Positions 5,266 to 23,259 of a stretch of DNA of 23,259 nucleotides are shown in pieces (the stretch's first letter is position 1; each line of letters opens with the position of its first letter). The stretch is from positions 62,001 to 85,259 of the IMG/VR virus record IMGVR_UViG_3300025009_000009; one strand, 5' to 3'. This stretch comes from an uncultured virus (IMG/VR IMGVR_UViG_3300025009_000009) (lineage: Duplodnaviria > Heunggongvirae > Uroviricota > Caudoviricetes). A program made the position numbers and the translations under genes. A model generated the notes under the pieces. The model saw only the letters and a program-made list of their open reading frames with translations. It had not been told where the DNA came from and made no database searches.

Positions 5266-5268
5266 TAT

Positions 5269-5311
5269 TACTGAACGTACATTCCTGAATGGAATGAAGA
5301 ATAATGAGGTA
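5269..5311 (+). repeat. Nested GA/GNA hairpin element
   Basis: TACT-GA-AC-GTA-[CAT-TCCT-GA-AT-GGA-AT-GA-AGAA-TA]-AT-GA-GGTA; near copy of 6578..6620. Confidence 0.8.
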
Positions 5312-5314
5312 TAT

Positions 5315-5494
5315 ATGGATAAAATTTATAACTATGAGATATCAGGAATAGACACTAAGGATTATCCAGATTTTTGTGATGCATATGTTAGTTATGCAGA
5401 ACATGAGGATGGTACACCACTAACAGATGAAGAGCTTGATGAAGTCAATGAGAGTGGTATGGTATATGAACTTGTTATCAACTATTTATTTTAA
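5315..5494 (+). CDS. Small acidic phage protein (GIDTKDYPDFCDAYVSYA...PLTDEELD)
   Basis: Motif I recognise from phage hypothetical proteins; start moved to the ATG after GAGGT. Confidence 0.75.
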   Translation: MDKIYNYEISGIDTKDYPDFCDAYVSYAEHEDGTPLTDEELDEVNESGMVYELVINYLF

Positions 5495-6534: not shown

Positions 6535-6620
6535 TACTGAATGTAATGAAGTATATTAAAAGATATTGAGGTATCATTACCGAACGTACATTCCTGAATG
6601 GAATGAAGGATAGTGGGGTA
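6535..6620 (+). repeat. Tandem GA/GNA hairpin elements: one simple (6535-6553) and one nested (6578-6620)
   Basis: TACT-GA-AT-GTA-AT-GA-AGTA and TACC-GA-AC-GTA-[CAT-TCCT-GA-AT-GGA-AT-GA-AGGA-TA]-GT-GG-GGTA. Confidence 0.85.
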
Positions 6621-6623
6621 TAT

Positions 6624-6950
6624 ATGAACAAATTTGATGGTATAATTAAAAAGCATGGTATTGAAAACTTAGTTATATCCAAAAAGCAATTAAAAGAAGG
6701 TGATACTATATTAATAAGTACATATAACAAAATAATGGAAACTAAGGTTATAAGTTTATTAAATAATATATGCGGTTATGAAAATTATATAATTGTAGAT
6801 AACGATAGTTATTTAGATCTATCAAATACCTTAGTTATTAAGGTTAACAAAGAGATAAAAGAAAAAAATAGATGTTCTTGTGGGGCTAAGTATACTAGTA
6901 ATCCTAATTATCACTTAAGTTATTGTGATTGTTTTAAAAGTAATTATTAA
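6624..6950 (+). CDS. Hypothetical protein with C-terminal CSCGA...H...C metal-binding motif
   Basis: Start moved to the ATG after GGGGT; RCSCGAKYTSNPNYHLSYCDC. Confidence 0.65.
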   Translation: MNKFDGIIKKHGIENLVISKKQLKEGDTILISTYNKIMETKVISLLNNICGYENYIIVDNDSYLDLSNTLVIKVNKEIKEKNRCSCGAKYTSNPNYHLSYCDCFKSNY

Positions 6951-6989
6951 TAAAGAAGAGATATAATAACGTTTAAATAGGAGATGTTT

Positions 6990-7772
6990 ATGAATGAAAA
7001 TACAATAGTGTGTCCTACAAATGCAACAACTAGTTATAATGTTACCGAAAAGTATAAGTTTCAATCTACTAAGGATATTATTAGTTTTTTTGAGTCTCAA
7101 GGGTTTATGTTAGCTAATAAAAAGATCTGTAAGGTTAGAAATAGATCTAAACAAGGCTTTCAAAAACATATGTTACGGTTTAATCATGAGGCGTTAAGGA
7201 TTGATGATCAAAACACGTTACAAGTCTTAGTTAAGAATAGTCATGATGGATCAAGCTCTCTTCAAATTAATCTAGGTATATATAGGCTTGTATGTTCAAA
7301 TGGTATGGTTATAGGTAGAGAATTTGTTGGTTATAATTTAAAACATATAGGTCATAACTTCTATATTAAATTAGAAGAATCTTTAAAAGAATTGATAGTA
7401 GCTGCACCTAAATACAAAGAAATGATTATAAGAATGCAGAATGTTAACTTAACCAATGATCAAAAAGACGAAATTATAAAAAAAGCGGTTAACTTGAGGC
7501 TACAAAGCATTGAAAATGTGGATAACGTTGACGTTAGTCGTTCTTTTAGTCCTATTAGAATAGAAGATAATACCAATGACTTATATACTGTACTTAATTT
7601 GGTACAAGAGAGAGTTATTAGAGGCGGTATAAAATATACAACAAAGACTGTAAATGAAAATAACGTTGTTGAGATTAAAAATCATTCAACTAAAAAAATT
7701 AATAGTATTGATAAAGATTTGGAGTTAAATAAGAATTTGTTTGATATAGTATCTTCTTATTTAGTAGCTTAA
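6990..7772 (+). CDS. DUF932/DUF945-family protein
   Basis: GFQKHMLRF, NSHDGSSSLQINLGIYRLVCSNG, DLYTVLNLVQERVIRGG, LNKNLF; AGGAG spacing favours ATG 6990 over 6984. Confidence 0.85.
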   Translation: MNENTIVCPTNATTSYNVTEKYKFQSTKDIISFFESQGFMLANKKICKVRNRSKQGFQKHMLRFNHEALRIDDQNTLQVLVKNSHDGSSSLQINLGIYRLVCSNGMVIGREFVGYNLKHIGHNFYIKLEESLKELIVAAPKYKEMIIRMQNVNLTNDQKDEIIKKAVNLRLQSIENVDNVDVSRSFSPIRIEDNTNDLYTVLNLVQERVIRGGIKYTTKTVNENNVVEIKNHSTKKINSIDKDLELNKNLFDIVSSYLVA

Positions 7773-7784
7773 TGAGGTATATGT

Positions 7785-8462
7785 ATGACACAATATGAAA
7801 AAGACTTAGCTGCTGTTAAACAAAATGGTTATGCTTTGAAATATGTTGAACATCAAACTCCCGAATTATGTTTAGCTGCTGTTAATCAATATGGTTATGC
7901 TTTACAATTTGTTAAGCATCAAACAGAAGAAATATGTTTAGCTGCTGTTAAACAAAATGGTTATGCTTTGAAATATGTTAAACATCAGACAGAAGAAATA
8001 TATTTAGCTGCTGTTAAAGAGAATGGTATGGCTTTACAATTTGTTAAACATCAAACAGAAGAAATATGTTTAGCTGCTGTTAAACAAGACGGTTATGCTT
8101 TGAAATATGTTAAACATCAAACAGAAGAAATTTGTTTAGCTGCTGTTAAACAAGACGGTTATACTTTGGAATATGTTAACCATCAAACAGAAGAATTATG
8201 TTTAGCTGCTGTTAAACAAAATGGTTATGTTATACAATATGTTGAATATCAAACAGAAGAAATATGTTTAGCTGCGGTTATAGAGAATGGTTATGCTTTA
8301 TGTTGGGTTAAACATCAAACAGAAGAATTGTGTTTAATTGCAGTCAATCAAGACGTTCGTGCATTGTATTATGTTAAGTCTGAAATTAAAACTAAAGAGT
8401 TTATGTTACGTTGCCTTGAAAATAATATAGCTTGTATAAAATATATGGAGATAGAATGCTAA
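7785..8462 (+). CDS. DUF4116-like 22-aa repeat protein, copy A (8 full repeats plus cap)
   Basis: Tandem KQNGYALKYVKHQTEEICLAAV-type repeats. Confidence 0.85.
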   Translation: MTQYEKDLAAVKQNGYALKYVEHQTPELCLAAVNQYGYALQFVKHQTEEICLAAVKQNGYALKYVKHQTEEIYLAAVKENGMALQFVKHQTEEICLAAVKQDGYALKYVKHQTEEICLAAVKQDGYTLEYVNHQTEELCLAAVKQNGYVIQYVEYQTEEICLAAVIENGYALCWVKHQTEELCLIAVNQDVRALYYVKSEIKTKEFMLRCLENNIACIKYMEIEC

Positions 8463-8713
8463 TTAGAAAATATAAAAATAGAAAAATGTATTGTTCTGAA
8501 TTGAATAGATGTTTAAAACTAAATGATATTAGTAAGTTAGTTAAAAAAGATATTACTTTACAAGTATTAGATTATAATGACGTTGATGTTACAAACGAAA
8601 TATTAAAGATGATACTAGTTAACTGTAATATACCAATACAACAACTAATAGAACTTATAAACCAATACTATGAGGTGAAAGATGATAAAAACGAAGGAAC
8701 AAGCGATAACTAG
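8456..8713 (+). CDS. PhaR/PhbF-type (PHA accumulation regulator) DNA-binding domain protein
   Basis: LIRKYKNRKMY...LNDISKLVK...LQVLD...DVTNEIL fits the IKKYxNRRLY...DIT..VL pattern; start at ATG 8456 after GGAG. Confidence 0.7.
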   Translation: MLIRKYKNRKMYCSELNRCLKLNDISKLVKKDITLQVLDYNDVDVTNEILKMILVNCNIPIQQLIELINQYYEVKDDKNEGTSDN

Positions 8714-8828
8714 AATTCGATATTTAGATGATCTATATTTTGAGACTGAAAAGGATAAACAAGGATTGATATTACTAGAAATATATGTTATATTACATAG
8801 ATTAGCAACAAACTATTATGGAGAATAG
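8682..8828 (+). CDS. Small hypothetical protein, 48 aa, not in the ORF track
   Basis: GAGGTG SD; MIKTKEQAITRIRYLDDLYFE...; fills the gap before 8832. Confidence 0.55.
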   Translation: MIKTKEQAITRIRYLDDLYFETEKDKQGLILLEIYVILHRLATNYYGE

Positions 8829-8831
8829 AAA

Positions 8832-9542
8832 ATGAGTAATTACAAACAAATAGTTAACTTATCAGAATCAATCAACAAAGAAGAAATTAATTATTGGATT
8901 GATCACAATCTTAATAATTATTTAAAAACTAGTCTAGAAAATGTTAGTGAAATAGAGCATATAATTGACTTCTTTTTATCAAAAAAAGAAAAAATCAGAC
9001 TTCATAAAATGAGCTATCAAGTAGCCGTTGAACTATCAAAACAATGGATTGAAAAACTAAATAAAAAGTCTGGTGAAATTATAGAAACAGAAGAAGATAC
9101 TGAATTGTTATTTAAATTTAAAAACGGTTTTAGAGTGGTTAAATTAGTGTCTGAATCAAGTTATAAAAGAGAAGGCTTATTAATGAGTCATTGTGTAGCA
9201 AGTTACTACGCCAAATCGAATATTGAGATTGTTAGTTTAAGAGATGTAAACAATAAACCGCATTGTACAATTGAATTTCAAAAGACTAACAACGTTATTA
9301 ATCAAATAAAAGGTAAGGGAAACGGTAGTATACATCCTAAGTATATTAAAGCTGTAATTAAAATTCTTAAGAAGTTTAACGTTGAAATTCGAGAGAGTGA
9401 ATTGAAAAACTTAGGTTATATTAATTTAAATGAAAAACAATGGTTATACTTAGAAGAAAATTTTGAAAATCTAAAGTGGATTATGTTTAATAATACTAAA
9501 TTTTTATATACTAATTTAAAATATAAAAGAATTCATAAATAA
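8832..9542 (+). CDS. PcfJ-like domain protein
   Basis: EGLLMSHCVASY, SLRD..NKPHCTIE, INQIKGKGN. Confidence 0.75.
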   Translation: MSNYKQIVNLSESINKEEINYWIDHNLNNYLKTSLENVSEIEHIIDFFLSKKEKIRLHKMSYQVAVELSKQWIEKLNKKSGEIIETEEDTELLFKFKNGFRVVKLVSESSYKREGLLMSHCVASYYAKSNIEIVSLRDVNNKPHCTIEFQKTNNVINQIKGKGNGSIHPKYIKAVIKILKKFNVEIRESELKNLGYINLNEKQWLYLEENFENLKWIMFNNTKFLYTNLKYKRIHK

Positions 9543-9599
9543 CAGCCTTTTTATTAAAAAAGTGGTTATAATTTGAATTATGTTTACTATGAGGTATAT

Positions 9600-10211
9600 A
9601 TGAAAGAAAAAAAGAAATTTAGTTTAGTTGAAAATAATATCAAAGTAGATGCTTTAATATGGAATTTACCAGCTATTATTACATGTAAAGCAAACTTAGA
9701 ATGTCATAAGTATTGTTATTGCAAAAAAGATAAACGTTTTCCAAGTGTTGAGGTTAGCCGAACTAATAATTTACAATTCAGTAAGTCAACAGACTTTGTA
9801 AATGAACTAACTAACGCTATTAAAAGTAATAAAAAGCATTCAACGGTTAGACTTCACGCGTCGGGTGATTTTTATAGTGTTCAATACATAAGTGATTGGT
9901 ATAAAATAATAAGTAATTGTCCAGAAGTAACTTTTTATGCTTACACAAAACGTGATGATCTATTTACTAAAGAGATATTAGCCGAAAAGCCTAACAACTT
10001 AACTTTGATATTTAGCGTTGATGGTTTATTTGAGACAATTCAAGACATACCAAATATCGATGTTCCACAAGGTTATAACAAGATAGCATTTGTAACAAAA
10101 AATGATACAAATTGTGTTGCTCAAAAAGACGATGATAAAAAATGTATTAGTGGTTGTAAGAAATGCTTGAAGTCATGTAAAGAAAATATTATTGTATTTA
10201 AAAAACATTAA
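9600..10211 (+). CDS. Gp88-family (radical SAM-like Fe-S) phage protein
   Basis: NLPAIITC...CHKYCYC, VRLHASGDFYS, FYAYTK, C-terminal CxxCxxC; start moved to the ATG after GAGGT. Confidence 0.8.
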   Translation: MKEKKKFSLVENNIKVDALIWNLPAIITCKANLECHKYCYCKKDKRFPSVEVSRTNNLQFSKSTDFVNELTNAIKSNKKHSTVRLHASGDFYSVQYISDWYKIISNCPEVTFYAYTKRDDLFTKEILAEKPNNLTLIFSVDGLFETIQDIPNIDVPQGYNKIAFVTKNDTNCVAQKDDDKKCISGCKKCLKSCKENIIVFKKH

Positions 10212-10228
10212 TTTTTGGAGATATAGAA

Positions 10229-10417
10229 ATGACTAAATATAAATTTACAGATCTTTCACCAGAGGCTAAATTAAATGCAATGTTAGATTATATTAGTGGT
10301 TGGCAACAAACACATAATGACGATCCTTTCGATTTAACGGATGCAGAAAGTGCTTGTCTCGATCTTAATGATGAATTATTTTATAACGAAAAAGGAGAAT
10401 TACTAGATGAATATTAA
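10229..10417 (+). CDS. Small acidic hypothetical protein (YKFTDLSPEAK...FYNEKGE)
   Basis: GGAG SD upstream. Confidence 0.65.
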   Translation: MTKYKFTDLSPEAKLNAMLDYISGWQQTHNDDPFDLTDAESACLDLNDELFYNEKGELLDEY

Positions 10418-10549
10418 AACACTAACTGAAGCTATTATCTTAACATTAATATTACTAATACCTATTATCTATATTACTTATATTAGTTATGAGTACATGA
10501 ACACTATAAGTAATTTTAGTTATAGTATATTTTTAAATTAGGTGTAAAC

Positions 10550-10705
10550 ATGCAAAACTTAAAACAAAATAAAATAGTCTTACTAATATTGTTGATATTT
10601 TGTGGTATCTTAGGTATATTACCAAAGAATAATGATCTTGGTGATATTATAAATAAGGCGATAGAAAACGTAAGAAATGATTTACAAGGTGTTAAACATG
10701 AATGA
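10550..10705 (+). CDS. Small membrane-anchored protein, 51 aa, not in the ORF track
   Basis: MQNLKQNKIVLLILLIFCGILGILP...; AGGTG upstream. Confidence 0.5.
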   Translation: MQNLKQNKIVLLILLIFCGILGILPKNNDLGDIINKAIENVRNDLQGVKHE

Positions 10706-10858
10706 AATAATAGATAAAATGATAGACATACAAGAGAACATGTTGATAATCGAAGAGTCTTTACTTTATAATAGTGATAAAAATTTACAGTTAAAACTAA
10801 ATGAATTGTATAATCAATGGTTAAATTATAAAAACTTACTAACAAAATAGAGGTGTTT

Positions 10859-11575
10859 ATGGGACAATATCATATTATTTATAACATAGATAAAAAAGAA
10901 TTCATAGATGCGCGTAGCTTTGATAGTGGTTTAAAATTGTTTGAGTATCCGTTTTATGGTGTTATGATGTTTGCTTTTAATTTGTTGTTAAGCAATTCTA
11001 ACGGTCGTGGTGGTGGTGACTTATACGTAAAGCATGATTATGATAAAAAAACATATAAGAGAATAGAAACAGAAGAAACAAAGTTAAAAGAAGCTATTTT
11101 ATCTCAAGTGTCCAGTAGATGGTCTGGTGATAGAATAGTTGTACAAGGTGATTATGTTAACGAAAACGATAAAGCTTATATAAATGATGTTGATATAGAA
11201 AACAATTATACCAATATTTCTAAATTAGTTTTAAATGTTCTAACGTTAGATGATTATTTACGTGAAAAAATACCAAGTGGTTATTCATGGAAATATTTAG
11301 CTAACAAAAAGGATAACAAATATAATAACGCTTTAGAATTAATAAAAGATACTAAAGGTAGAATGTTTAGGATTAAGTTTATTAAAAAAAGTGGTGAAAT
11401 AAGAGAGTTAACTGTTAGAAATGGAGTTACTAAACATATTAAAGGTGTTGAAAGAAAGAAAAATGATAACAATTTAGTGTTATATGATATGAATAATAAA
11501 AGTTACAAGACTATTATTAAAGATAATATTGTTAGTATAAAATTTAATGGTGTTATTTATAATTTCGATAGATAA
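10859..11575 (+). CDS. Two-domain protein: conserved hypothetical N-domain plus C-terminal WYL/SH3-like beta-barrel
   Basis: N: MGQYH...DKKEFI...GLKLFE...GRGGGD...RWSGDRIVVQGDY. C: GRMFRIKFIKKSGEIREL...LYDMNNKSYKTI. Confidence 0.65.
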   Translation: MGQYHIIYNIDKKEFIDARSFDSGLKLFEYPFYGVMMFAFNLLLSNSNGRGGGDLYVKHDYDKKTYKRIETEETKLKEAILSQVSSRWSGDRIVVQGDYVNENDKAYINDVDIENNYTNISKLVLNVLTLDDYLREKIPSGYSWKYLANKKDNKYNNALELIKDTKGRMFRIKFIKKSGEIRELTVRNGVTKHIKGVERKKNDNNLVLYDMNNKSYKTIIKDNIVSIKFNGVIYNFDR

Positions 11576-11586
11576 TAATATAGTAT

Positions 11587-11625
11587 TATCAAATGTACAT
11601 TCTTGAACGAAGTAAAGGAAAGTTA
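11587..11625 (+). repeat. Degenerate nested GA/GNA hairpin element upstream of repeat gene B
   Basis: TATC-AA-AT-GTA-[CAT-TCTT-GA-AC-GAA-GT-AA-AGGA-AA]-GT-TA. Confidence 0.65.
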
Positions 11626-11627
11626 AA

Positions 11628-12167
11628 ATGACACAATATGAAAACGACTTAGCTTGGATTAAAGACAATGGTTGTAATTTACGTTATATTTACAATCAGA
11701 CCGATGAGATTTGTTTAGCTGTTGTTAAACAAAACGGTAGAGCTTTGGAATATGTTAAACATCAGACAGAAGAAATATGTTTAGCTGCTGTTAAAGAGAA
11801 TGGTATGGCTTTACAATTTGTTAAACATCAAACAGAAGAAATATGTTTAGCTGCTGTTAAGCAAAATGGTTATGCTTTACTATATGTTAAGCATCAAACT
11901 GATGAATTATGTTTAGCTGCTGTCAATCAAAATGGTTATGCTTTGAAATATGTTGAATATCAAACACCAGAATTATGCTTAGTTGCTGTTACTAATTATG
12001 GTAATGCTTTGAAATATGTTAAGCATCAAACTGACGAATTATGCTTAGTTGCGATTAAAAAATATGAATGGTGTTTGTGTTATGTTAAACCAGAGATTAA
12101 AACTAAAGATTTTTTATTACGATGTTTAGAAATTAATATAGCTTGTATAAAATATATGGAGATATAG
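11628..12167 (+). CDS. DUF4116-like 22-aa repeat protein, copy B (6 full repeats plus cap)
   Basis: Same repeat unit and caps as copy A. Confidence 0.85.
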   Translation: MTQYENDLAWIKDNGCNLRYIYNQTDEICLAVVKQNGRALEYVKHQTEEICLAAVKENGMALQFVKHQTEEICLAAVKQNGYALLYVKHQTDELCLAAVNQNGYALKYVEYQTPELCLVAVTNYGNALKYVKHQTDELCLVAIKKYEWCLCYVKPEIKTKDFLLRCLEINIACIKYMEI

Positions 12168-12169
12168 AA

Positions 12170-12454
12170 ATGAATAATATAATAGATTTTCCTAAAATAA
12201 AACAATTACAAGAGGAACTAAATAAATTACTAGAAAGCAATCCAGAAAGAAGGGAATATCAAGAGTGGTTAAATAAACAACTAGATAAATATGGTGATGG
12301 TTCTACTCCAGAAAGTAGACATAATAGAATGTTATTTTTTAATGAATTACTAAAGGATAAAATAAGATCTTTAAACAAAGCTTTGTTAGATTGTAAAGTA
12401 GATTTAGAAAAGATTAAGACTAAAATAAAGGATATAGAAAATGATAGTAAATAA
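12170..12454 (+). CDS. Hypothetical coiled-coil protein (MNNIIDFP...)
   Basis: Start moved to ATG 12170 after GGAG at the end of copy B. Confidence 0.65.
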   Translation: MNNIIDFPKIKQLQEELNKLLESNPERREYQEWLNKQLDKYGDGSTPESRHNRMLFFNELLKDKIRSLNKALLDCKVDLEKIKTKIKDIENDSK

Positions 12455-12707
12455 AAGGTATCACAGTCCTTTGTTATATAAAGTAAATAAACGAAACAAC
12501 TATCAAGTCTGGTGTGCTATAGTTGAAGATAATATATTAAAGATTATGTCATACGAACAATCGTATAATAGATTTAATAAACGTAACTATATAAAAGAAT
12601 ATGATAACAAAGAAACTGCTATTAATGATTTGAATAAACGTTATGAAGAAAAAAGAAAGAAAGGATTCAGAAATTGGAACGAAATAAACAAAGATATATC
12701 AACTTAG
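12441..12707 (+). CDS. WGR-like domain protein
   Basis: LYKVNKRNNYQVWCAIVE...KEYDNKETAINDLNKRYEEKRKKGF resembles WGR domains, though the W-G-R residues are not evident. Confidence 0.5.
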   Translation: MIVNKRYHSPLLYKVNKRNNYQVWCAIVEDNILKIMSYEQSYNRFNKRNYIKEYDNKETAINDLNKRYEEKRKKGFRNWNEINKDIST

Positions 12708-12946
12708 GTTGGTTTATATTACAAAGTAAATATTGTTATTACTTAGAAGTTAAGTTTAAACATTTAAATGATACAGAATATGATAAAATAGAGGATGAAT
12801 ATAAACAGTTAGCTAAAGATCTAGGGTTACCAATAAGTGCTTGTGATATGGTCGGTTTTGATTTAAATAGGGCAAGTTGTAGATTGGTTAAAGATAAACT
12901 AGAGCAAACAAAGAGTGTTGACTTTGGTTTATTAAATGAAGTATAA
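12674..12946 (+). CDS. Stand-alone NAD-dependent DNA ligase domain Ia-like protein
   Basis: KYCYY...LNDTEYDKIE resembles LigA YY...ISDxEYD; no ligase catalytic core; start uncertain. Confidence 0.5.
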   Translation: MERNKQRYINLGWFILQSKYCYYLEVKFKHLNDTEYDKIEDEYKQLAKDLGLPISACDMVGFDLNRASCRLVKDKLEQTKSVDFGLLNEV

Positions 12947-12947
12947 T

Positions 12948-12990
12948 TACTAAATATCACTTCTTGAACGAAGTGAAAGATAATTAGGTA
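12948..12990 (+). repeat. Nested GA/GNA hairpin element
   Basis: Inner TCTT-GA-AC-GAA-GT-GA-AAGA (12962-12980) inside a degenerate TACT...GGTA outer element. Confidence 0.8.
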
Positions 12991-13066
12991 TAGTATGATT
13001 TGGATTATATTTATTTGTTCAATATTATTTTTTATGTGGTTAATAGGATAAAAAAATGAGGCGTAT

Positions 13067-13606
13067 ATGACACAATATGAAAACGACTTAGCTTGGATTA
13101 AAGACAATGGTTGTAATTTACGTTATATTTACAATCAGACCGATGAGATTTGTTTAGCTGTTGTTAAACAAAACGGTAGAGCTTTGGAATATGTTAAACA
13201 TCAGACAGAAGAAATATGTTTAGCTGCTGTTAAAGAGAATGGTACGGCTTTACAATTTGTTAAACATCAAACAGAAGAAATATGTTTAGCTGCGGTTATA
13301 GAGAATGGTTATGCTATATGTTGGGTTAAACATCAAACAGAAGAATTGTGTTTAATTGCTGTTAAAAAATATAGTGATGTTTTGCGTTTTGTTAAACATC
13401 AAACAGAAGAAATTTGTTTAGCTGCTGTTAAACAAGACGGTTATGCTTTGGAATATGTTAAACATCAAACTGATGAAATATGTTTAGCTGCTGTTAATCA
13501 ATATGGTAATGCTTTGAAATATGTTAAACCAGAGATTAAAACGGAAGAATTTTTATTACGATGTTTAGAAACTAATATAGCTTGTATAAAATATATGGAG
13601 ATATAG
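13067..13606 (+). CDS. DUF4116-like 22-aa repeat protein, copy C (6 full repeats plus cap)
   Basis: 5' end nearly identical to B; 3' end identical to D. Confidence 0.85.
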   Translation: MTQYENDLAWIKDNGCNLRYIYNQTDEICLAVVKQNGRALEYVKHQTEEICLAAVKENGTALQFVKHQTEEICLAAVIENGYAICWVKHQTEELCLIAVKKYSDVLRFVKHQTEEICLAAVKQDGYALEYVKHQTDEICLAAVNQYGNALKYVKPEIKTEEFLLRCLETNIACIKYMEI

Positions 13607-13608
13607 AA

Positions 13609-14658
13609 ATGAAGATATCTTGGAGTAGAATAGAGAAGTATTTAACTTGTCCTAAATACTATTATTACTATTACATTTGTGGTTATAGAGACACAACAAT
13701 TAGTTCAGCTTTATTCTTTGGTACTAGTTTGGGTACAACTTGGCAACAAATACTTTTAACTAAAAAAGAACAGCTAACAGAAGAAGAAAAAAAGATAATC
13801 AACATTAATCCGTATATCTTTTTTGATAATTTATATAAAACAGTTAAGATAAATGATAACATTTACGATTTAGAAGATTGTATGTATGCTCGGTATTTTA
13901 AAAGTGATTTTGATAGTGATATACTAAATACTGAGGATAATGAACGAATAACAACATATAAACAAAAGAATAACATAGAAGAAAGTTTATCTTTTGATAT
14001 ATTGTATCCTAAATATGAAACTTATTCAACTAATGAAAAAGAAACAAAGTTTATTAACTTCCTATTTTGGGTGTCAACAAGACGTAAAGCTTATATGTTA
14101 ATCGATATTTATATAAAAGAAGTATTACCTTTGGTTCATAAAGTACATAGAATTGAAGGTAAAATATCTATAGAAAATACTAATGGTGATGTTCTTGAAG
14201 GATTTCTAGACGTTGATGCAGACTTTGAATATCCTAAAGATAATGTACAAAGAGTAATATTAGACCATAAAACTAGTAGTGTTAAATATAGTTCTAATGC
14301 TATTTTAACAAAGCAACAGCTTGCTTTATATAGCTATTCTGAAGGAATTGAGACACAAGGGTATATAATTGGATTAAAAAAGATAAAGAAACCTAAAATT
14401 GGTACAAATAAAGGTAAATTACAAGCAGAAATACAAATATTAGTTGATAAAATATCAGAAGAAAGACAAGAAGAAGTTATAAAAGAAGCAGATTCTGTCT
14501 TACAAAAGATAAAGAAACAAGAGTTTGAAAAGGATTATAGTAAAGGTTGTTTAGTATTTGGTAAATCTTGTTGTTATAAACCTTTATGTCATAAAGGATG
14601 TAATCCTGATTATTTGTATATAAAAAAAGGTGAGAATATAAGCAAAAAATGGGAGTAA
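13609..14658 (+). CDS. PD-(D/E)XK nuclease, Cas4/RecB-like exonuclease
   Basis: ISWSRI..YLTCP, GFLD...ILDHKT, QQLALY and C-terminal Cys cluster; start at ATG 13609. Confidence 0.85.
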   Translation: MKISWSRIEKYLTCPKYYYYYYICGYRDTTISSALFFGTSLGTTWQQILLTKKEQLTEEEKKIININPYIFFDNLYKTVKINDNIYDLEDCMYARYFKSDFDSDILNTEDNERITTYKQKNNIEESLSFDILYPKYETYSTNEKETKFINFLFWVSTRRKAYMLIDIYIKEVLPLVHKVHRIEGKISIENTNGDVLEGFLDVDADFEYPKDNVQRVILDHKTSSVKYSSNAILTKQQLALYSYSEGIETQGYIIGLKKIKKPKIGTNKGKLQAEIQILVDKISEERQEEVIKEADSVLQKIKKQEFEKDYSKGCLVFGKSCCYKPLCHKGCNPDYLYIKKGENISKKWE

Positions 14659-14735
14659 TTACCGAATGTAAATGGTGTATTATTACCGAATGTAATGAAT
14701 TATCGTGAATGATTAGAATTAAATATGGTGAGGTA
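14658..14735 (+). repeat. Two degenerate or interrupted GA/GNA hairpin elements upstream of repeat gene D
   Basis: ATTACCGAATGTAA at 14658-14671 and 14682-14695; GT-GA-GGTA arm ends at 14735. Confidence 0.65.
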
Positions 14736-14740
14736 TATGT

Positions 14741-15676
14741 ATGACACAATATGAAAAAGATTTAGCTGCTGTTAAAGAAAATGGTAGAGCTTTGAAATAT
14801 ATTGAACATCAAACACCAGAATTATGTTTAACTGCTGTTAATCAAAATGGTTATGCTTTGAAATATGTTGAATATCAAACAGAAGAAATATGTTTAGCCG
14901 CTGTTAAGGAAAATAGTTATGCTTTGAAATATGTTAAACATCAGACTCCAGAACTTTGTATGATTGCTGTTAAAGAAGACGGTCTTACTTTATGTTTTGT
15001 TAAACAACAAACAGAAGAAATATGTTTAGCTGCTGTTAAACAGAATGGTTATGCTTTGGACTATGTTAAACATCAGACAGAAGAAATATACTTAGCCGCT
15101 GTTAAGCAAAATGGTTATGCTTTACAATTGGTTAAACAACAAACTGATGAAATATGTTTAGCTGCTGTTAATCAATATGGTTATGCTTTACAATTGGTTA
15201 AACAACAAACTGATGAAATATGTTTAGCTGCTGTTAAACAAAATGGTTATGCTTTGAAATATGTTAAACATCAGACTCCAGAACTTTGTATGATTGCTGT
15301 TAAAGAAGACGGTCTTACTTTATGTTTTGTTAAACAACAAACAGAAGAAATATATTTAGCTGCTGTTAAAGAGAATGGTATGGCTTTACAATTTGTTAAA
15401 CATCAAACAGAAGAAATATGTTTAGCTGCTGTTAAACAAGACGGTTATGCTTTGAAATATGTTAAACATCAAACAGAAGAAATTTGTTTAGCTGCTGTTA
15501 AACAAGACGGTTATGCTTTGGAATATGTTAAACATCAAACTGATGAAATATGTTTAGCTGCTGTTAATCAATATGGTAATGCTTTGAAATATGTTAAACC
15601 AGAGATTAAAACGGAAGAATTTTTATTACGATGTTTAGAAACTAATATAGCTTGTATAAAATATATGGAGATATAG
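14741..15676 (+). CDS. DUF4116-like 22-aa repeat protein, copy D (12 full repeats plus cap)
   Basis: Same repeat unit and caps; internal duplication of the PELCMIAVKEDGLTLCF block. Confidence 0.85.
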   Translation: MTQYEKDLAAVKENGRALKYIEHQTPELCLTAVNQNGYALKYVEYQTEEICLAAVKENSYALKYVKHQTPELCMIAVKEDGLTLCFVKQQTEEICLAAVKQNGYALDYVKHQTEEIYLAAVKQNGYALQLVKQQTDEICLAAVNQYGYALQLVKQQTDEICLAAVKQNGYALKYVKHQTPELCMIAVKEDGLTLCFVKQQTEEIYLAAVKENGMALQFVKHQTEEICLAAVKQDGYALKYVKHQTEEICLAAVKQDGYALEYVKHQTDEICLAAVNQYGNALKYVKPEIKTEEFLLRCLETNIACIKYMEI

Positions 15677-15677
15677 T

Positions 15678-15995
15678 ATGCGTTATATTATAGTTTTTAT
15701 TATATTTATAATACTAATATCATTAGATACATCACAATCTAATTTAAAAAATCAATCTTGTTATCTAGGTTATGTTGTTAAACTAGAAAAACAAGAAAAG
15801 AAGTATATACTAAATATAAAACTTAATAACGAAATCCAAGTATTAACCATTAATGAAAATAGTGATGTAAAATTCATTGATTTATTACAAAATGTTACAG
15901 GTAAAAATGTTTTAATTGGTATAAAATATATGTATACTAATAATGAATATAGTGATAAACTTGAAAATGTTAAAATAATAAGGAGCAAGATATGA
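15678..15995 (+). CDS. Hypothetical protein with N-terminal signal or TM segment
   Basis: MRYIIVFIIFIILISL; GGAG SD inside the end of copy D. Confidence 0.65.
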   Translation: MRYIIVFIIFIILISLDTSQSNLKNQSCYLGYVVKLEKQEKKYILNIKLNNEIQVLTINENSDVKFIDLLQNVTGKNVLIGIKYMYTNNEYSDKLENVKIIRSKI

Positions 15996-16558
15996 GAAAC
16001 TTTCCATTAGAAAAGGATAAAATAGATAAAAACCAAATATGGACTATTAGTTCAAATGGAACACCAATGTATGTTTGTATTGGTAATGTTGATTCGTTTA
16101 ATCTTTTATATAACTTACCTCAAAATCTTTTAGATGAACTACTAGAATATGGTTGGTGTAATCAATATAATAGATTTCATTTTGAAACGTATAACTTTAA
16201 ATTAAATGATACAATAAAAGATACTAATACAAATACCCAATATGAAATATCCGATGTTACTATGAACATATGTAATAATATATTTGTTGCTAAATTATGG
16301 GATATAGACAATTTTAAGAGTATAGAAATGTCTTTAGGTGATTTAGAATATAATATAAGTAGTCAAGAATATGAAATTATAGAAAAGGAAGAAGATTTAG
16401 TATCTAAAGAAATTGATGATTTTTTTTCTGGTGTTGATGAAAAAAAGGAATTACCTTGTTCTATATATAATAAAGATTGTGAGATAGTAACTTCATATAT
16501 GCCTGTATCTGGTAAATCCTTTAAAATGTGTAGAACCCATAAGAAGGAGGTATTTTAA
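15992..16558 (+). CDS. Hypothetical protein with C-terminal Cys/His motif
   Basis: AGGAG SD; ATGA coupling to the previous ORF. Confidence 0.65.
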   Translation: MRNFPLEKDKIDKNQIWTISSNGTPMYVCIGNVDSFNLLYNLPQNLLDELLEYGWCNQYNRFHFETYNFKLNDTIKDTNTNTQYEISDVTMNICNNIFVAKLWDIDNFKSIEMSLGDLEYNISSQEYEIIEKEEDLVSKEIDDFFSGVDEKKELPCSIYNKDCEIVTSYMPVSGKSFKMCRTHKKEVF

Positions 16559-16881
16559 TGGAAAAATTTAAAATTGGTGATAAATTTAAATATAGAGATG
16601 ATATATATTTCCAAATTATAAACATAGGTGTGTATGATAATGGTGATCCTAGATATAAACTTGAATGTTATGAACGTCAGTTAATATCGATAGACCATTG
16701 TGGTGATGAATGTTTATTGGTGTGTAAAAAAATTGTTAACTTTCCTTGGGAAAATGAGACTTGTAAAGAAATTAAAAATGAATGTGAACATCTTTGGTTT
16801 GAAACTATATCACCATTTTCGGGTATAAAATGGAAAGATTGTAGTAAATGTGGTATGAAGTGGGAAGATTATCAAAAATAA
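16558..16881 (+). CDS. Hypothetical protein with C-terminal CxHxW...CxxCG zinc ribbon
   Basis: AGGAGG SD; CEHLW...DCSKCG. Confidence 0.7.
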   Translation: MEKFKIGDKFKYRDDIYFQIINIGVYDNGDPRYKLECYERQLISIDHCGDECLLVCKKIVNFPWENETCKEIKNECEHLWFETISPFSGIKWKDCSKCGMKWEDYQK

Positions 16882-16897
16882 TATATGAGGGTATAAT

Positions 16898-17233
16898 ATG
16901 TATTTCTTAAAATTAGTAATGTCTTTTCTTTCATTTATTATATTATGTGTTATAATTACGAGTGTTTATATTTATCTTGAAGAAAGTAAAAAAACTAATT
17001 TATGTAAAATACTTGAAAAAGAATTTAATATAATATACAATGTATATGAATATAATAATATGTTTTGTAAACAAACAATATGTATAAGTCCATATCTTTA
17101 TAGAAAAGATTATTTTAATAATTTACAAGAGATAACTTTATCAGATACAACATTAGAATGTACCAAAAATATTTATGAAAAATTAAGAATTCAAAAAGAA
17201 TATGAAAGTTATAAAATGGAGGTAAAACAATGA
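16898..17233 (+). CDS. Hypothetical membrane-anchored protein
   Basis: N-terminal TM segment; GAGGG SD. Confidence 0.6.
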   Translation: MYFLKLVMSFLSFIILCVIITSVYIYLEESKKTNLCKILEKEFNIIYNVYEYNNMFCKQTICISPYLYRKDYFNNLQEITLSDTTLECTKNIYEKLRIQKEYESYKMEVKQ

Positions 17234-17667
17234 AAATTTTCGAACTAGCTAAAGAATTAGGTTTAAAAGGTCATGAGTTACTTAACTTGATCAAAGAAAA
17301 CGACTATGGTTATACAGCAATTACACAGACTTTAGATGTTGATGATGAAAATAAGTTTAGAAATGAATTTAAAGATGTTAAAAAAGAAGTAACAATTGAA
17401 GAAATAAAAGAAGAAGTAGATCCTGAGATAAAAGAACATGATAAAATTGAGATGGTTGGTATTTATTATGATTATAAAAGAAAGAAATATATACCAATAA
17501 CAATGATTATATTACCAGAACAGTTTGAAACATTAAACGTTGTTAAAAATGGAGAATATAATACCATTTACAATGCTAAAAGTAAAATGGGAGAACTATC
17601 AACAAAGGCTAAGTTTTTTAATCCTAGTACATTAGAAAGACTTATAGATAAAAGGAGATTAAAATGA
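17230..17667 (+). CDS. Protein with N-terminal translation initiation factor IF2_N-like domain
   Basis: MKIFELAKELGLKGHELLNLIKE...TLD matches the IF2 N-terminal pattern (RVYELAKELG.S.KELL..L); no GTPase domain. Confidence 0.7.
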   Translation: MKIFELAKELGLKGHELLNLIKENDYGYTAITQTLDVDDENKFRNEFKDVKKEVTIEEIKEEVDPEIKEHDKIEMVGIYYDYKRKKYIPITMIILPEQFETLNVVKNGEYNTIYNAKSKMGELSTKAKFFNPSTLERLIDKRRLK

Positions 17668-17999
17668 TATTATTAAAAGAAGTATTTGATAAATTACCAG
17701 AAAAGGTGAGGAAGTTAATAACTGAAGAAAATGAAAAATATTGGGTAAATAGAAAAGGTAATATAAATCCATATATTACTAATATGGGATATTATCATGA
17801 ATATCTTGGTTATAATGTATATTATGAGTTTTGTAAAAATATTGAAACATTAGAAGATGTTAAATTAATAACTCAAATTGATATACCTAAATTATTAAAA
17901 TTAGAAAAAGAGAATGAAGAACTATACAAATTAAAAAAAGAATATGATAATCTAAAGAAAAGTATAGAAGTTATAAAAGATCAATTTAATAAAGGATAA
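17664..17999 (+). CDS. Hypothetical protein with C-terminal coiled coil
   Basis: AGGAG SD; ATGA coupling. Confidence 0.65.
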   Translation: MILLKEVFDKLPEKVRKLITEENEKYWVNRKGNINPYITNMGYYHEYLGYNVYYEFCKNIETLEDVKLITQIDIPKLLKLEKENEELYKLKKEYDNLKKSIEVIKDQFNKG

Positions 18000-18094
18000 T
18001 TGAAATGATTAAGGAAATATTCACATACGTTTGGGTTAGTATATTTGTTATTTCGTTGATAATATTAATGTTAAATCTTAACTAAGGAGTATAA

Positions 18095-18673
18095 ATGACA
18101 GAAAAAGAAATTTATGAAAAACTATCATCACCTTTTCCATCAGAAGCTTTTCAGGTAGATTCTAGTAGAGGATTTGATTTATCTAGTTTAAAAGCTCAGT
18201 ATATAGTTGAGCGTCTTAACGAAGTGCTTGGTATTGGTGGTTGGGATTTAGTTGGTGCTTATGAAAGAATTAAAGATGATATAATCTTTCAAGGTAAATT
18301 GTTCATAAGAATTGATGATAAAACTTATGAACATGATGGGGTTGGACATTGTGGACCTAAGAAAAACGTTGGTGATCAATATAAATCTGCTAAAACTGAT
18401 TGTCTTAGTAAAACAGCAAGTTGGTTTGGTGTTGGTAATGAATGTTTTAAAGGTTTAGTTGATCCTAAAACGATTAAGAAAGGAAATAATGTAACAAATT
18501 ACACTCAAACAACAAAACCGAGTGTAAATAATTACAAAACAGAAGAAAAAAAGGAGGAAAAACAAGAAGAAATACCAACTTTCAGCAAGAAAAAGAAACA
18601 AATGGAAGAAAAAACAGTAGAAACTGTTAAAAATGAAGAAAATACAGCAGTAAAAAGTACAAGTAAATGGTGA
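18095..18673 (+). CDS. Rad52/22-family (Sak-like) single-strand annealing protein
   Basis: LSSPFP, YIVERLNEVLGIGGW, YKSAKTDCLSKTASWFGVG; low-complexity charged tail. Confidence 0.85.
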   Translation: MTEKEIYEKLSSPFPSEAFQVDSSRGFDLSSLKAQYIVERLNEVLGIGGWDLVGAYERIKDDIIFQGKLFIRIDDKTYEHDGVGHCGPKKNVGDQYKSAKTDCLSKTASWFGVGNECFKGLVDPKTIKKGNNVTNYTQTTKPSVNNYKTEEKKEEKQEEIPTFSKKKKQMEEKTVETVKNEENTAVKSTSKW

Positions 18674-21271: not shown

Positions 21272-21799
21272 ATGAAAAAATCATGTAAAATTGCTATAAC
21301 ATGGGATTGTAATCTAGATTGTTCTTATTGTTGTAATAAGTTAGATGCTGTACAAAATAAGTTTCAAAATTCAACTTTAGATGAAATACTTGTTCAAAAT
21401 TATGAAAATATATCAATTACTGGTGGAGAAATAGGTATATGTCCAGAAAAACTTAACAATTATCTTGAGATTTTAGGAAAAACAAAATCGAAATTATGGT
21501 TATATACTAACGGTAGATTAATGCCACAAATGTTAATTAGACCTGAAAGAATTAATGGTATTAATATTAGCTGTCATAATAGTATATCACACAGTTTGTT
21601 ATGTGTGAATCAATGGGAAAAATATAAGGATATAAATATTAGATTACATATACAAGATGAAAAATATGATGACTATCTTATTAGTATGCAAAAATTAATA
21701 GAGTTATATATTCCTAAACAAAATATTAAATTGTGGACGTTAGATAAATGTTTTGACAATATTGAAGAAGATTGGTATTATATATCAGGAGTTAATTAA
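21272..21799 (+). CDS. Radical SAM protein
   Basis: CNLDCSYC (CxxxCxxC), ITGGE, YTNG. Confidence 0.85.
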   Translation: MKKSCKIAITWDCNLDCSYCCNKLDAVQNKFQNSTLDEILVQNYENISITGGEIGICPEKLNNYLEILGKTKSKLWLYTNGRLMPQMLIRPERINGINISCHNSISHSLLCVNQWEKYKDINIRLHIQDEKYDDYLISMQKLIELYIPKQNIKLWTLDKCFDNIEEDWYYISGVN

Positions 21800-22894: not shown

Positions 22895-23259
22895 ATGACA
22901 GAATATGAAAAAGATTTAGCTATGGTTAAACGAGATAGTTATGCTTTGGAATACGTTAAACATCAAACTTATGAATTATGTTTAGCTGTGGTTATAGAGA
23001 ATGGTTATGCTTTGAAATATGTTGAACATCAAACTCCCGAATTATGTTTAGCTGCTGTTAATCAATATGGTTATGCTTTACAATTTGTTAAGCATCAAAC
23101 AGAAGAAATATGTTTAGCTGCTGTTAAACAAAATGGTTATGCTTTGAAATATGTTAAACATCAGACAGAAGAAATATATTTAGCTGCTGTTAAAGAGAAT
23201 GGTATGGCTTTACAATTTGTTAAACATCAAACAGAAGAAATATGTTTAGCTGCTGTTAA
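22895..23259 (+). CDS. DUF4116-like 22-aa repeat protein, copy E (3' truncated by the window; not in the ORF track)
   Basis: MTEYEKDLAMVKRDSYALEYVKHQTYELCLAVVIENGYALKYV...; GAGGT SD; 23000-23259 identical to 7824-8083. Confidence 0.85.
   Translation, partial: MTEYEKDLAMVKRDSYALEYVKHQTYELCLAVVIENGYALKYVEHQTPELCLAAVNQYGYALQFVKHQTEEICLAAVKQNGYALKYVKHQTEEIYLAAVKENGMALQFVKHQTEEICLAAV

What the first reader, a model, noticed from the sequence alone, without database searches (positions are those of the whole stretch)
13067..13606. The repeat genes are recent mosaics of each other (ongoing gene conversion or shuffling)
Seen: C 13067-13293 matches B 11628-11854 (227 nt, one mismatch, M/T). C's IENGYA[I/L]CW unit matches A from about 8271 with one mismatch. 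C 13391-13606 equals D 15461-15676 (216 nt). E 23000-23259 equals A 7824-8083 (260 nt). The IYLAAVKENGMALQF...KQDGY block is shared by A and D. D carries an internal duplication of PELCMIAVKEDGLTLCF. Synonymous markers (ACT-CCC, CAG-ACA, GCG-GTT) travel with the blocks. Inference: in-register 66-bp exchange between loci, plausibly driven by the Rad52/Sak annealase and exonuclease encoded in this window.
Basis: partly seen in the sequence, partly recalled or inferred. Interest (0 to 1): 0.75.

Follow-up and report, generated by a model that had tools for sequence, protein, structure and literature searches.

The report
Recombining DUF4116 repeat genes in phage
Six scattered copies of a helical-repeat gene in an uncultured groundwater phage have recently copied stretches of about 100 to 260 bases into one another, a clear but fairly ordinary case of recombination inside a gene family whose function is unknown.

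Summary
Gene C (13067-13606) is B-like at the head, A-like in the middle and D-like at the tail.

The window is the last 23 kb of an 85-kb tailed-phage contig. The contig closes into an 84,999-bp circle through the 260-nt A/E block. This completes gene E, and a sixth gene, F, lies outside the window.

The genes encode DUF4116 proteins built from 22-aa (66-nt) units. Units differ by 20.5% on average. Seven shared blocks totalling 1,179 nt carry only 2 differences, far beyond shuffle controls.

Misassembly is unlikely:
- Three other virus contigs are identical over every stretch compared.
- Contigs assembled from a public run show two shared blocks at about twice single-copy depth.

The best reading is recent ectopic homologous recombination (gene conversion) between paralogs, always in the 66-nt phase. 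"Ongoing" is not shown, because no variants were seen. The role of the phage's Rad52-like annealase and PD-(D/E)XK nuclease is plausible but untested.

This scan has already noted recombining or expanded DUF4116 families on other DNA, so this is a new member of a known kind.

The parts
7785..8462 (+). Gene A: DUF4116 protein, 225 aa = 21-aa head + 8 units of 22 aa + 28-aa cap. Shares blocks with F, E, D and C along most of its length.
   Evidence: Pfam PF13475 E 1.5e-50; unit parsing; 69% covered by exact matches of 40 nt or more to other copies
11628..12167 (+). Gene B: DUF4116 protein, 179 aa, 6 units. Its first 227 nt equal C's with 1 mismatch.
   Evidence: PF13475 E 7.1e-33
13067..13606 (+). 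Gene C (the finding): DUF4116 protein, 179 aa, 6 units. A mosaic of B-like head (1-227), A-like middle (200-293) and D-like tail (324-540).
   Evidence: PF13475 E 2e-31; 94% of the gene covered by exact matches of 40 nt or more to B, A and D; AlphaFold2 model pLDDT 95.5, two helices per unit
14741..15676 (+). Gene D: DUF4116 protein, 311 aa, 12 units. Has an internal 108-nt duplication (D3 = D8). Its 3' third is made of an A-like block followed by a C-like block.
   Evidence: PF13475 E 4.5e-72
22895..23259 (+). Gene E, first 365 of 474 nt. The rest lies at contig bases 261-369 across the circular junction. 157 aa, 5 units.
   Evidence: 260-nt overlap of contig ends; an independently assembled contig runs through this junction with 0 mismatches (L034); PF13475 E 1.8e-22
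7824..8083 (+). 260-nt block identical to E 23000-23259 (A units 1-3 = E units 2-4). It is also the overlap of the contig's two ends.
13390..13606 (+). 217-nt block identical to D 15460-15676 (C5, C6 and cap = D11, D12 and cap). It ends exactly at the stop codon.
13067..13293 (+). 227-nt block equal to B 11628-11854 with 1 mismatch at 13245. It starts exactly at the ATG.
   Evidence: Assembled contig of run X1 covering 11628-11809 has depth 487.8 against about 242 for single-copy flanks
13266..13359 (+). 94-nt block equal to A 8248-8341 with 1 mismatch (13316).
15341..15514 (+). 174-nt block identical to A 7989-8162. It overlaps the C/D block by 55 nt, where A, C and D are all identical (a likely exchange zone).
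14916..15023 (+). 108-nt block repeated at 15246-15353 inside gene D, five units apart.
13609..14658 (+). PD-(D/E)XK nuclease between C and D, with four cysteines invariant across its homologues (C14, C314, C321, C327). Candidate resection nuclease.
   Evidence: PF12705 E 5.8e-12; invariant columns; phrog_69 exonuclease E 4.9e-7
18095..18673 (+). Rad52/Sak-like single-strand annealing protein (candidate).
   Evidence: PF04098 at 19.7 bits, just under the 20.3 cut-off; 26 of 32 aligned family members, the window's protein included, match PF04098 at E up to 0.01, best E 5e-10

Best explanation
The phage carries a family of six complete, separately translated genes (A-E in the window, F elsewhere). 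Each encodes an alpha-solenoid of 22-aa DUF4116 units between a conserved 21-aa head and a 26-28-aa cap.

The units are old: they differ by about 20% at the DNA level, as much within a gene as between genes. Laid over this are very young tracts of 94-260 nt that are identical or nearly so between genes 1.4 to 15 kb apart, plus one repeated inside D.

These tracts are the product of ectopic homologous recombination without crossover (gene conversion or template switching) between paralogs:
1. A broken or replicating strand from one copy anneals to another copy at one of the many short identical stretches that recur every 66 nt.
2. It copies up to a few units.
3. It resolves back, always in phase but often at a different unit index. 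Both unit content and unit number therefore change.

Shown: the tracts, their phase, the abrupt borders, the conflicting head and cap relationships, and the retention of the single-copy genes in between.

Inferred: the non-reciprocal mechanism, and that the phage's own Rad52-like annealase, PD-(D/E)XK nuclease and RuvC-like resolvase carry it out. The proteins' function is unknown. From the fold and the pattern of variable positions they are most likely binding scaffolds made during the replication phase.
For: Blocks and borders:
- Exact blocks of 260, 217, 178, 174, 108 and 99 nt, all at phase 0.
- Seven pairwise blocks totalling 1,179 nt carry 2 differences (0.17%; 95% upper bound 0.53%), against 20.5% between units in general.
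- Abrupt switches: B/C 1/195 vs 63/264 (Fisher p 7e-16); C/D 0/213 vs 60/264 (p 1e-17); A/E 0/198 vs 29/129 (p 2e-13).
- Heads group B=C and A~F; caps group C=D.
- Shuffle controls never reached the observed runs.
- Mean unit distance within genes is 13.75, between genes 13.51 of 66 nt, so the units are well mixed among genes.

Substrate for recombination:
- 229 exact shared runs of 23 nt or more and 136 of 27 nt or more. All 136 of the latter are at offset 0 mod 66.
- The minimal pairing segment quoted for Red-beta is 23-27 bp, with tolerance to about 17% divergence (PMC3945230, section 14).
- Block overlaps (55 nt shared by A, C and D; 95 nt shared by A, D and E) are the kind of common identity in which exchanges resolve.
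- Similarity stops at the ATG and the stop codon, and the flanks are unrelated. The genes between copies are unique, so no crossover product is seen.

The sequence is real:
- Three other IMG/VR contigs are identical over window 9609-18655 and over the A, B and E loci. Each contig, the window's own included, ends inside a shared block: G000 and G002 overlap by the 260-nt A/E block, G001 by 62 nt inside the B/C block, and G003's ends fall 6 nt apart inside the A/E block.
- In run X1, the assembled contig for the B/C head has depth 487.8 and the one for the E/F block 423.4, against 223-255 for single-copy pieces.

Recombination genes present: a Rad52-like protein, a PD-(D/E)XK nuclease, a second exonuclease, and a RuvC-like resolvase directly after F.
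Against: - No population variant of any mosaic was found. The four virus contigs (the window's own and three others) agree wherever compared, so current activity is not demonstrated.
- All read-level data available here were assembled contigs, not raw reads. They cannot prove which head is joined to which tail across exact repeats of 174-260 nt.
- Donor and recipient cannot be told apart, and reciprocity cannot be tested.
- The units occur in a common order in several genes (A1-A5, E2-E4, D10-D12, C5-C6). Recent partial duplications of one A-like gene would also give this.
- The window's own Rad52-like protein falls just below Pfam's cut-off, and no solved structure matched by sequence.
- The four assemblies may come from related samples and one pipeline, so they may not be fully independent.
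Confidence: 0.8

Rival explanations
1. Assembly artefact. The shared blocks arise because a short-read metagenome assembler collapsed similar repeats or walked through the wrong copy, so the mosaics do not exist in any one molecule.
For: The record is a metagenome contig. All four contigs (the window's own and three others) end inside DUF4116 shared blocks, so the assemblers did struggle there. Exact repeats of 174-260 nt exceed usual k-mer sizes. Only contig-level public data could be laid.
Against: - Three other contigs give the same sequence with 0 mismatches over all stretches compared. One breaks in B yet runs straight through the E junction.
- A different assembly of run X1 yields a separate piece for the B/C head at depth 487.8 and for the E/F block at 423.4, against 223-255 for flanks. 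This fits true two-copy sequence. No alternative letters were reported inside the B/C head block.
- A wrong walk through an exact repeat swaps what lies on either side; it does not create the shared block. Swapping at the A/E block would split the genome into two circles.
Confidence: 0.04
2. Birth-and-death without exchange. Each young block is what remains of a recent duplication, in which a new gene was seeded at a new locus from part of an A-like master gene. There was no copying between genes that already existed.
For: - Shared units keep one common order across genes.
- Identity reaches exactly to the ATG (B/C) or to the stop codon (C/D).
- A is a hub whose length is almost tiled by blocks shared with F, E, D and C.
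- Distant relatives of the phage lack the family (0 of 2 records), so the expansion is lineage-specific.
Against: - C has three different nearest relatives along 540 nt (B, A, D). Its head and cap disagree: head 0 differences from B and 15 from D; cap 0 from D and 4 from B.
- The parts of B and C, or of C and D, outside the blocks are 23-24% apart. The genes are therefore old and only the blocks are young.
- Building such a gene from pieces of three paralogs is itself inter-paralog recombination.
Confidence: 0.12
3. Identity kept by selection on the nucleotide sequence itself (for example an RNA structure or regulatory site inside the blocks), not by recent copying.
For: None found. Considered only because the blocks have no synonymous differences at all.
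Against: The same amino-acid units are spelled with different synonymous codons elsewhere in the family (overall pS 0.30). Blocks start and end at arbitrary positions of the unit and cover different units in different gene pairs.
Confidence: 0.02

Closest known systems
Relaxed homologous recombination by phage Rad52-like recombinases (De Paepe et al. 2014, PMC3945230; abstract and section 14 read)
   Same: Homology-driven exchange that needs only short identical stretches and tolerates diverged DNA. The phage encodes a Rad52-like protein and nucleases. Exchange borders lie in shared identity.
   Different: That work concerns exchange between different phage or prophage genomes of E. coli temperate phages. 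Here the partners are paralogs within one genome of an uncultured phage with no integrase hit among the 90 ORFs scanned. Nothing has been measured.
Concerted evolution and segmental gene conversion in multigene families. This includes the recombining DUF4116 tandem array noted earlier in this scan (e1-1093211) and bacterial antigenic-variation cassettes such as Neisseria pilE/pilS and Borrelia vlsE (recalled, not checked here).
   Same: In-frame tracts copied between paralogs, abrupt borders, conflicting relationships along the gene, and conserved gene ends.
   Different: All six copies here are full genes with start codon, ribosome-binding site, head and cap. There is no single expression site with silent cassettes. 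The copies are dispersed among unrelated phage genes rather than in a tandem array.
DUF4116 (PF13475) repeat proteins in other phages: PHROGs 5925, 17056 and 31839 (unknown function), Pseudoalteromonas phage vB_PtuP_Slicky01 (3 genes), Bacillus phage vB_BspM_AgentSmith (matches in 4 open frames), and the groundwater jumbo-phage family noted earlier in this scan (e1-5404455)
   Same: Same Pfam family, the same 22-aa period, and several copies per phage genome.
   Different: In Slicky01 the longest exact run shared by its three genes is 64 nt, against 260 nt here. Only 7 of 50,697 phage records matched. Head and cap sequences differ between phages.
Diversity-generating retroelements of phages
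   Same: A phage-borne way of varying a binding protein.
   Different: No reverse transcriptase in the genome. Variation comes in copied blocks, not as adenine-specific changes. The two mismatches inside the blocks are T/C and A/T.
Lineage-specific expansions of solenoid repeat proteins (ankyrin, MORN, FNIP) in giant viruses (recalled, not checked here)
   Same: A virus-encoded multigene family of short helical repeats of unknown targets. DUF4116 itself occurs in a Marseillevirus record (P0128).
   Different: Those are viruses of eukaryotes with far larger families. This is an 85-kb tailed phage.

Membership tests
Pfam DUF4116 (PF13475) repeat proteins | Match to the family model above its curated cut-off (24.9 bits) | tested here: met
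   A 168.9, B 112.3, C 107.7, D 237.8 and E 79.1 bits. 34 matches in the genome, in frames at six places.
Pfam DUF4116 (PF13475) repeat proteins | Alpha-solenoid fold, as predicted for the family (PMC8078820, passages read) | tested here: met
   AlphaFold2 model of C: pLDDT 95.5, pTM 0.87, a 10-residue and a 6-residue helix per 22-aa unit. Only generic likeness to solved helical repeats: Foldseek best E 0.08; VIA-align best Z 6.2.
Ectopic gene conversion between paralogs | Tracts of near-identity with abrupt borders inside otherwise diverged genes | tested here: met
   2 differences in 1,179 nt of blocks vs 20.5% background. Fisher p from 2e-13 to 1e-17 at three borders. Exceeds 500 of 500 shuffles of both kinds for the longest run.
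Ectopic gene conversion between paralogs | Different parts of a gene have different closest relatives | tested here: met
   C: head = B, middle = A, tail = D. Head and cap distance tables disagree.
Ectopic gene conversion between paralogs | Non-crossover outcome: DNA between the copies is kept | tested here: met
   Unique genes lie between all copies and the flanks are unrelated.
Ectopic gene conversion between paralogs | Non-reciprocal transfer with an identifiable donor | not testable with these tools
   Needs an outgroup strain or an experiment. No diverged relative with the family was found.
Ectopic gene conversion between paralogs | Ongoing: variants segregating in the population | tested here: inconclusive
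   Three other contigs are identical where compared. One low-depth contig in run X16 reads as a 66-nt step back in gene A but could be a mislaid paralog. Raw reads were not available.
Rad52/Sak-type single-strand annealing protein (window 18095-18673) | Match to Pfam Rad52_Rad22 (PF04098) above the cut-off | tested here: inconclusive
   Own protein 19.7 bits vs cut-off 20.3, E 8.7e-4. 26 of 32 aligned members of its family, the window's protein included, match PF04098 at E up to 0.01, best E 5e-10, and 2 match Mgm101p. No PDB sequence match.
Rad52/Sak-type single-strand annealing protein (window 18095-18673) | Annealing activity and a role in the exchanges | not testable with these tools
   Requires biochemistry or genetics.
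Diversity-generating retroelement | Reverse transcriptase gene | tested here: not met
   PF00078: 0 matches in the 85-kb record, while 3 control genomes matched.
Antigenic-variation cassette system (one expression site plus silent copies) | Silent, truncated donor cassettes without their own start | tested here: not met
   All six copies have ATG, upstream ribosome-binding sequence, head, cap and stop.

The most novel reading that the evidence does not exclude
The six genes may form a self-diversifying repertoire. The phage's own annealase and nuclease machinery would keep reshuffling 22-aa modules among expressed replication-phase genes. The surface positions of these modules (17, 20, 21, 5) vary most and show more non-synonymous than synonymous change. 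The reshuffling would generate new binding surfaces against host targets or defences, making it a recombination-based counterpart of diversity-generating retroelements in a phage with no lysogeny genes found.
Probability: 0.12. Interest if true: 0.7.

Novelty: new member of a known kind. Interest (0 to 1): 0.4.

Why it matters
DUF4116 is a large family with no known function: 1,209 proteins of similar length at E up to 0.001 in one search, and only 4 papers in the library mention it.

This phage offers a compact natural experiment. It has six copies, a clean record of which 66-nt modules were exchanged, and a candidate recombination toolkit in the same genome. If the exchanges prove frequent, the system would show how a phage without a reverse transcriptase diversifies a binding-protein family. 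It would also give a handle on what DUF4116 proteins bind.

It also carries a practical warning. The repeats break short-read assemblies, and they hide the fact that this contig is a complete circle.

Tried and rejected
- Megablast of the whole window against 50,697 phage records: no match.
- Relatives by the nuclease and by the primase-helicase in IMG/VR: only three contigs, all 100% identical.
- A profile of nuclease homologues found two distant phages (27-30% identity). Neither has DUF4116, 0 of 2. No informative strain comparison was therefore possible.
- Metagenome contigs searched with the nuclease: none.
- Loose ends at 9339, 9370 and 16422 shared by runs X16-X18 looked like a variant strain. 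The 30-letter consensus found nothing in IMG/VR. In the metagenome contigs it found one 2.7-kb contig (L055) with no blastn similarity to this genome. The lead was dropped.
- Run X16 has one contig (depth 5.6) that steps back 66 nt at 7871->7806, with C>T at 7805. It also has T instead of A at 13316, which would make C's unit equal to A's. Either could be a real unit-number or sequence variant, or a contig of another paralog laid at the wrong copy. This stays unresolved, because only one laying call was allowed.
- Several bins of X16-X18 had no cover. Nothing is read from that.
- Other letters at 13456-13499 in X1 come from one contig at single-copy depth that also joins to 14760. It is read as another paralog's sequence, not as variation.
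- PDB sequence searches with the Rad52-like protein and with its family profile: nothing.
- Fold searches with the model of C: only generic helical-repeat likeness to designed armadillo, ankyrin and PPR proteins.
- The repeated 63-nt intergenic motif (5267, 6576, 12946) and the shared TGAGGTATATGT before A, D and E turned out to be general translation-start and promoter-like sequence of this phage, not a DUF4116-specific flank.
- Literature: 'DUF4116' gave 4 papers, none on phages or function (passages of PMC8078820 read). A search on gene conversion, paralogs, phage genome and repeat proteins listed 15 of 70 papers, none describing this (listing only).
- pN/pS above 1 at codons 5, 10, 16, 17, 18, 20 and 21 is a crude count in a recombining, AT-rich family. 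It is treated as a hint only.

Full report
**What the window is**

The window is bases 62001-85259 of an 85,259-base virus record with 27% G+C. The first and last 260 bases of that record are identical. The genome therefore closes into a circle of 84,999 bp, although the source classes it as linear.

A PHROGs scan covered 90 of the 131 ORFs that my own simple caller found. It hit:
- terminase large subunit, portal, head maturation protease and tail proteins on the minus strand;
- DNA polymerase, primase-helicase, exonucleases, dUTPase, dNMP kinase, RtcB ligase and a RuvC-like resolvase on the plus strand.

No integrase and no reverse transcriptase was hit. This is a tailed phage.

Public runs labelled groundwater or soil metagenome hold it. 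Of 20 rows listed, 16 hold half or more of the sampled words, spread over up to 11 coded studies, one of which may be the source.

**The gene family**

Tandem Repeats Finder and the repeat tool show 66-nt arrays at five places in the window. The five ORFs match Pfam DUF4116 with E from 1.8e-22 to 4.5e-72.

A search of the whole record adds a sixth gene, F, at contig 13745-14089. It also shows that gene E continues over the circular junction into contig bases 261-369.

Each protein has three parts:
- a 21-aa head (MTQYEKDLAAVKQNGYALKYV-like);
- 3, 5, 6, 6, 8 or 12 units of 22 aa (consensus KHQTEEICLAAVKQNGYALKYV);
- a 26-28-aa cap (KPEIKTEEFLLRCLE.NIACIKYMEI).

All six lie on the plus strand, in the replication and nucleotide-metabolism part of the genome. 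They sit between unrelated genes. Similarity begins at the ATG, preceded only by a ribosome-binding stretch that other genes of this phage also use. It ends at the stop codon, which abuts or overlaps the next gene's start.

**The observation**

All three long identities hold as written. An all-against-all search gives these exact blocks:

| Pair | Length | Note |
|---|---|---|
| A/E | 260 nt | |
| C/D | 217 nt | |
| B/C | 178 nt + 1 mismatch + 48 nt | |
| A/D | 174 nt | |
| D/D | 108 nt | internal to D |
| E/F | 99 nt | |
| A/C | 94 nt | 1 mismatch |

Gene C, the finding's interval, is 94% covered by exact matches of 40 nt or more: to B (1-178), A (200-293) and D (324-540). The E/A block ends at the window's last base only because the contig was cut there. 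It is the very repeat on which the assembler opened the circle.

**Is it more than chance?**

The 40 internal units differ on average at 13.6 of 66 positions (20.5%). The figure is the same within genes (13.75) as between genes (13.51).

Seven pairwise blocks totalling 1,179 nt carry 2 differences (0.17%; 95% upper bound 0.53%).

Identity switches abruptly at the block borders:
- B vs C: 1/195, then 63/264, then 4/81 in the cap.
- C vs D: 60/264, then 0/213.
- A vs E: 18/63, then 0/198, then 11/66.
- Fisher p ranges from 2e-13 to 1e-17.

Shuffle controls fell well short. Shuffling alignment columns among units gave a longest in-register run of 43 nt on average, maximum 61. Shuffling whole units gave 100 on average, maximum 183 (500 shuffles each). 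Six gene pairs have runs of 99 nt or more, against at most 3 in any shuffle.

**Is it an assembly artefact?**

Three other IMG/VR contigs (85,057, 85,256 and 84,982 nt) are identical to the window over 9609-18655. They are also identical over the A, B and E loci and the contig ends that I fetched, with 0 mismatches in every stretch compared. One of them is broken inside gene B, with a 62-nt overlap, but runs straight through the E junction. That confirms my circular join.

All four contigs (the window's own and three others) end inside shared blocks. The assemblers evidently met true repeats there.

A different assembly of public run X1, laid on 7000-16500, gives single-copy pieces at depth 223-255. 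It gives a separate 182-nt piece for the B/C head at 487.8, and a piece at 423.4 that I identified as the E/F shared block laid on D. This is what two real copies give.

A wrong walk through an exact repeat would swap the sequences on either side. It would not create the shared block.

Limits: all runs were available only as contigs, which drop rare variants and cannot link across 174-260-nt repeats. The four assemblies may also share a pipeline and related samples.

**Mechanism**

The borders, the conflict between head and cap relationships (C's head equals B's, C's cap equals D's) and the intact unique genes between copies point to non-crossover homologous recombination between paralogs, that is, gene conversion or template switching.

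The family offers a dense substrate. There are 229 exact shared runs of 23 nt or more and 136 of 27 nt or more. All 136 of the latter lie at offset 0 mod 66. Exchange can hardly occur out of phase.

Most blocks join different unit indices: A1=E2, A4=D10, C5=D11, A7=C3, E5=F3. Exchanges therefore also change unit number, which ranges from 3 to 12.

Block overlaps mark plausible resolution zones: 55 nt common to A, C and D, and 95 nt common to A, D and E.

- A PD-(D/E)XK nuclease with four invariant cysteines sits between C and D.
- A Rad52-like protein scores just under Pfam's cut-off, and in its family 26 of 32 aligned members (the window's protein included) match Rad52_Rad22 at E up to 0.01.
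- A RuvC-like resolvase follows F directly.

Such annealases recombine diverged DNA through short identities. For Red-beta the minimal pairing segment is 23-27 bp, with tolerance to about 17% divergence. This is established for E. coli phages (PMC3945230, abstract and section 14). Their role here is inference. Host RecA, or replication slippage between copies, would leave the same traces.

**'Ongoing' is not shown**

No variant mosaic was found. Two weak leads in run X16 could not be resolved. An apparent variant strain suggested by shared loose ends proved to be an unrelated contig.

**What the proteins are**

AlphaFold2 models C as a regular alpha-solenoid with one 10-residue and one 6-residue helix per unit (pLDDT 95.5). 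This agrees with the solenoid predicted for the family in PMC8078820.

Solved structures give only generic helical-repeat likeness.

Within the unit, Q3, T4, E6 and V22 never vary. Positions 17 and 20 vary most, with 8 residue types each. Codons 5, 10, 16-18, 20 and 21 show more non-synonymous than synonymous difference in a crude count. This fits a binding scaffold with a variable face, but no partner is known.

**How common is this?**

DUF4116 is widespread: 1,209 proteins at E up to 0.001 among 1,681 candidates, including a Marseillevirus and a Romboutsia record. It is rare in cultured phages, matching 7 of 50,697 records, two of which are the same phage.

Pseudoalteromonas phage Slicky01 has three such genes, and Bacillus phage AgentSmith has matches in four open frames. 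In Slicky01 the longest shared exact run is 64 nt, so the young blocks are a feature of this phage, not of the family.

Two distant relatives of this phage lack the family.

Earlier notes of this scan describe a recombining DUF4116 tandem array in a digester bacterium (e1-1093211) and a 16-copy family in a groundwater jumbo phage (e1-5404455). I did not test those.

**Verdict**

The mosaic and gene-conversion reading is well supported. 'Ongoing' and the named enzymes remain untested.

The process is a known one, acting in a family and host type where it has not been described in print, as far as two literature searches show. Interest is moderate.

Noticed in passing
window 23000-23259 and contig bases 1-260: The record's two ends are an exact 260-nt overlap, so the genome is a closed 84,999-bp circle (or circularly permuted), although the source classes it as linear. 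The break sits on the A/E repeat.
   Followed up: yes
contig G000:C1:13745-14089 (outside the window): Sixth DUF4116 gene, F (114 aa, 3 units). It shares 99 nt with E and 53 nt with A. Its stop overlaps the start (ATGA) of a RuvC-like Holliday-junction resolvase gene at 14086-14583.
   Followed up: partly
window 5267-5329, 6576-6638, 12946-13008; partial copy before B at about 11585-11627: A recurring intergenic motif (ATTACYGAACGTACATTCCTGAATGRAATGAAG... ending in GAGGTATATATG). It looks like a promoter plus ribosome-binding site shared by several plus-strand genes. It was not tested.
   Followed up: partly
window 13609-14658: The PD-(D/E)XK nuclease has one N-terminal and three C-terminal cysteines that are invariant in 11 homologues. 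From recall, this pattern is typical of Cas4/AddB-type iron-sulfur nucleases. The nearest non-self homologue is only 63% identical.
   Followed up: partly
window 19206-21239: A 677-aa fused primase and DnaB-like helicase.
   Followed up: no
window 6984-7772, 8832-9542, 9573-10211: DUF932, PcfJ-like and GP88-family proteins. These are usually seen on plasmids, conjugative elements and phages. Here they sit around gene A.
   Followed up: no
window 21272-21799: A small (175 aa) radical-SAM-like protein with a CxxxCxxC motif near its N-terminus. It has only weak family matches.
   Followed up: no
contig 61109-62287 (ends at window 287): An RtcB-type RNA ligase gene (phrog_1075, E 1.4e-118) straddles the window start.
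   Followed up: no
contig 9861-10523, 37782-38411, 41968-42633, 47805-48128: Four HNH, endonuclease VII or LAGLIDADG-type endonuclease genes are scattered through the genome, three of them inside the structural module. They are possible homing elements.
   Followed up: no
window 7806-7871 in run X16: One low-depth contig (5.6) reads as a 66-nt step back in gene A. This could be an extra-unit variant or a mislaid paralog.
   Followed up: partly
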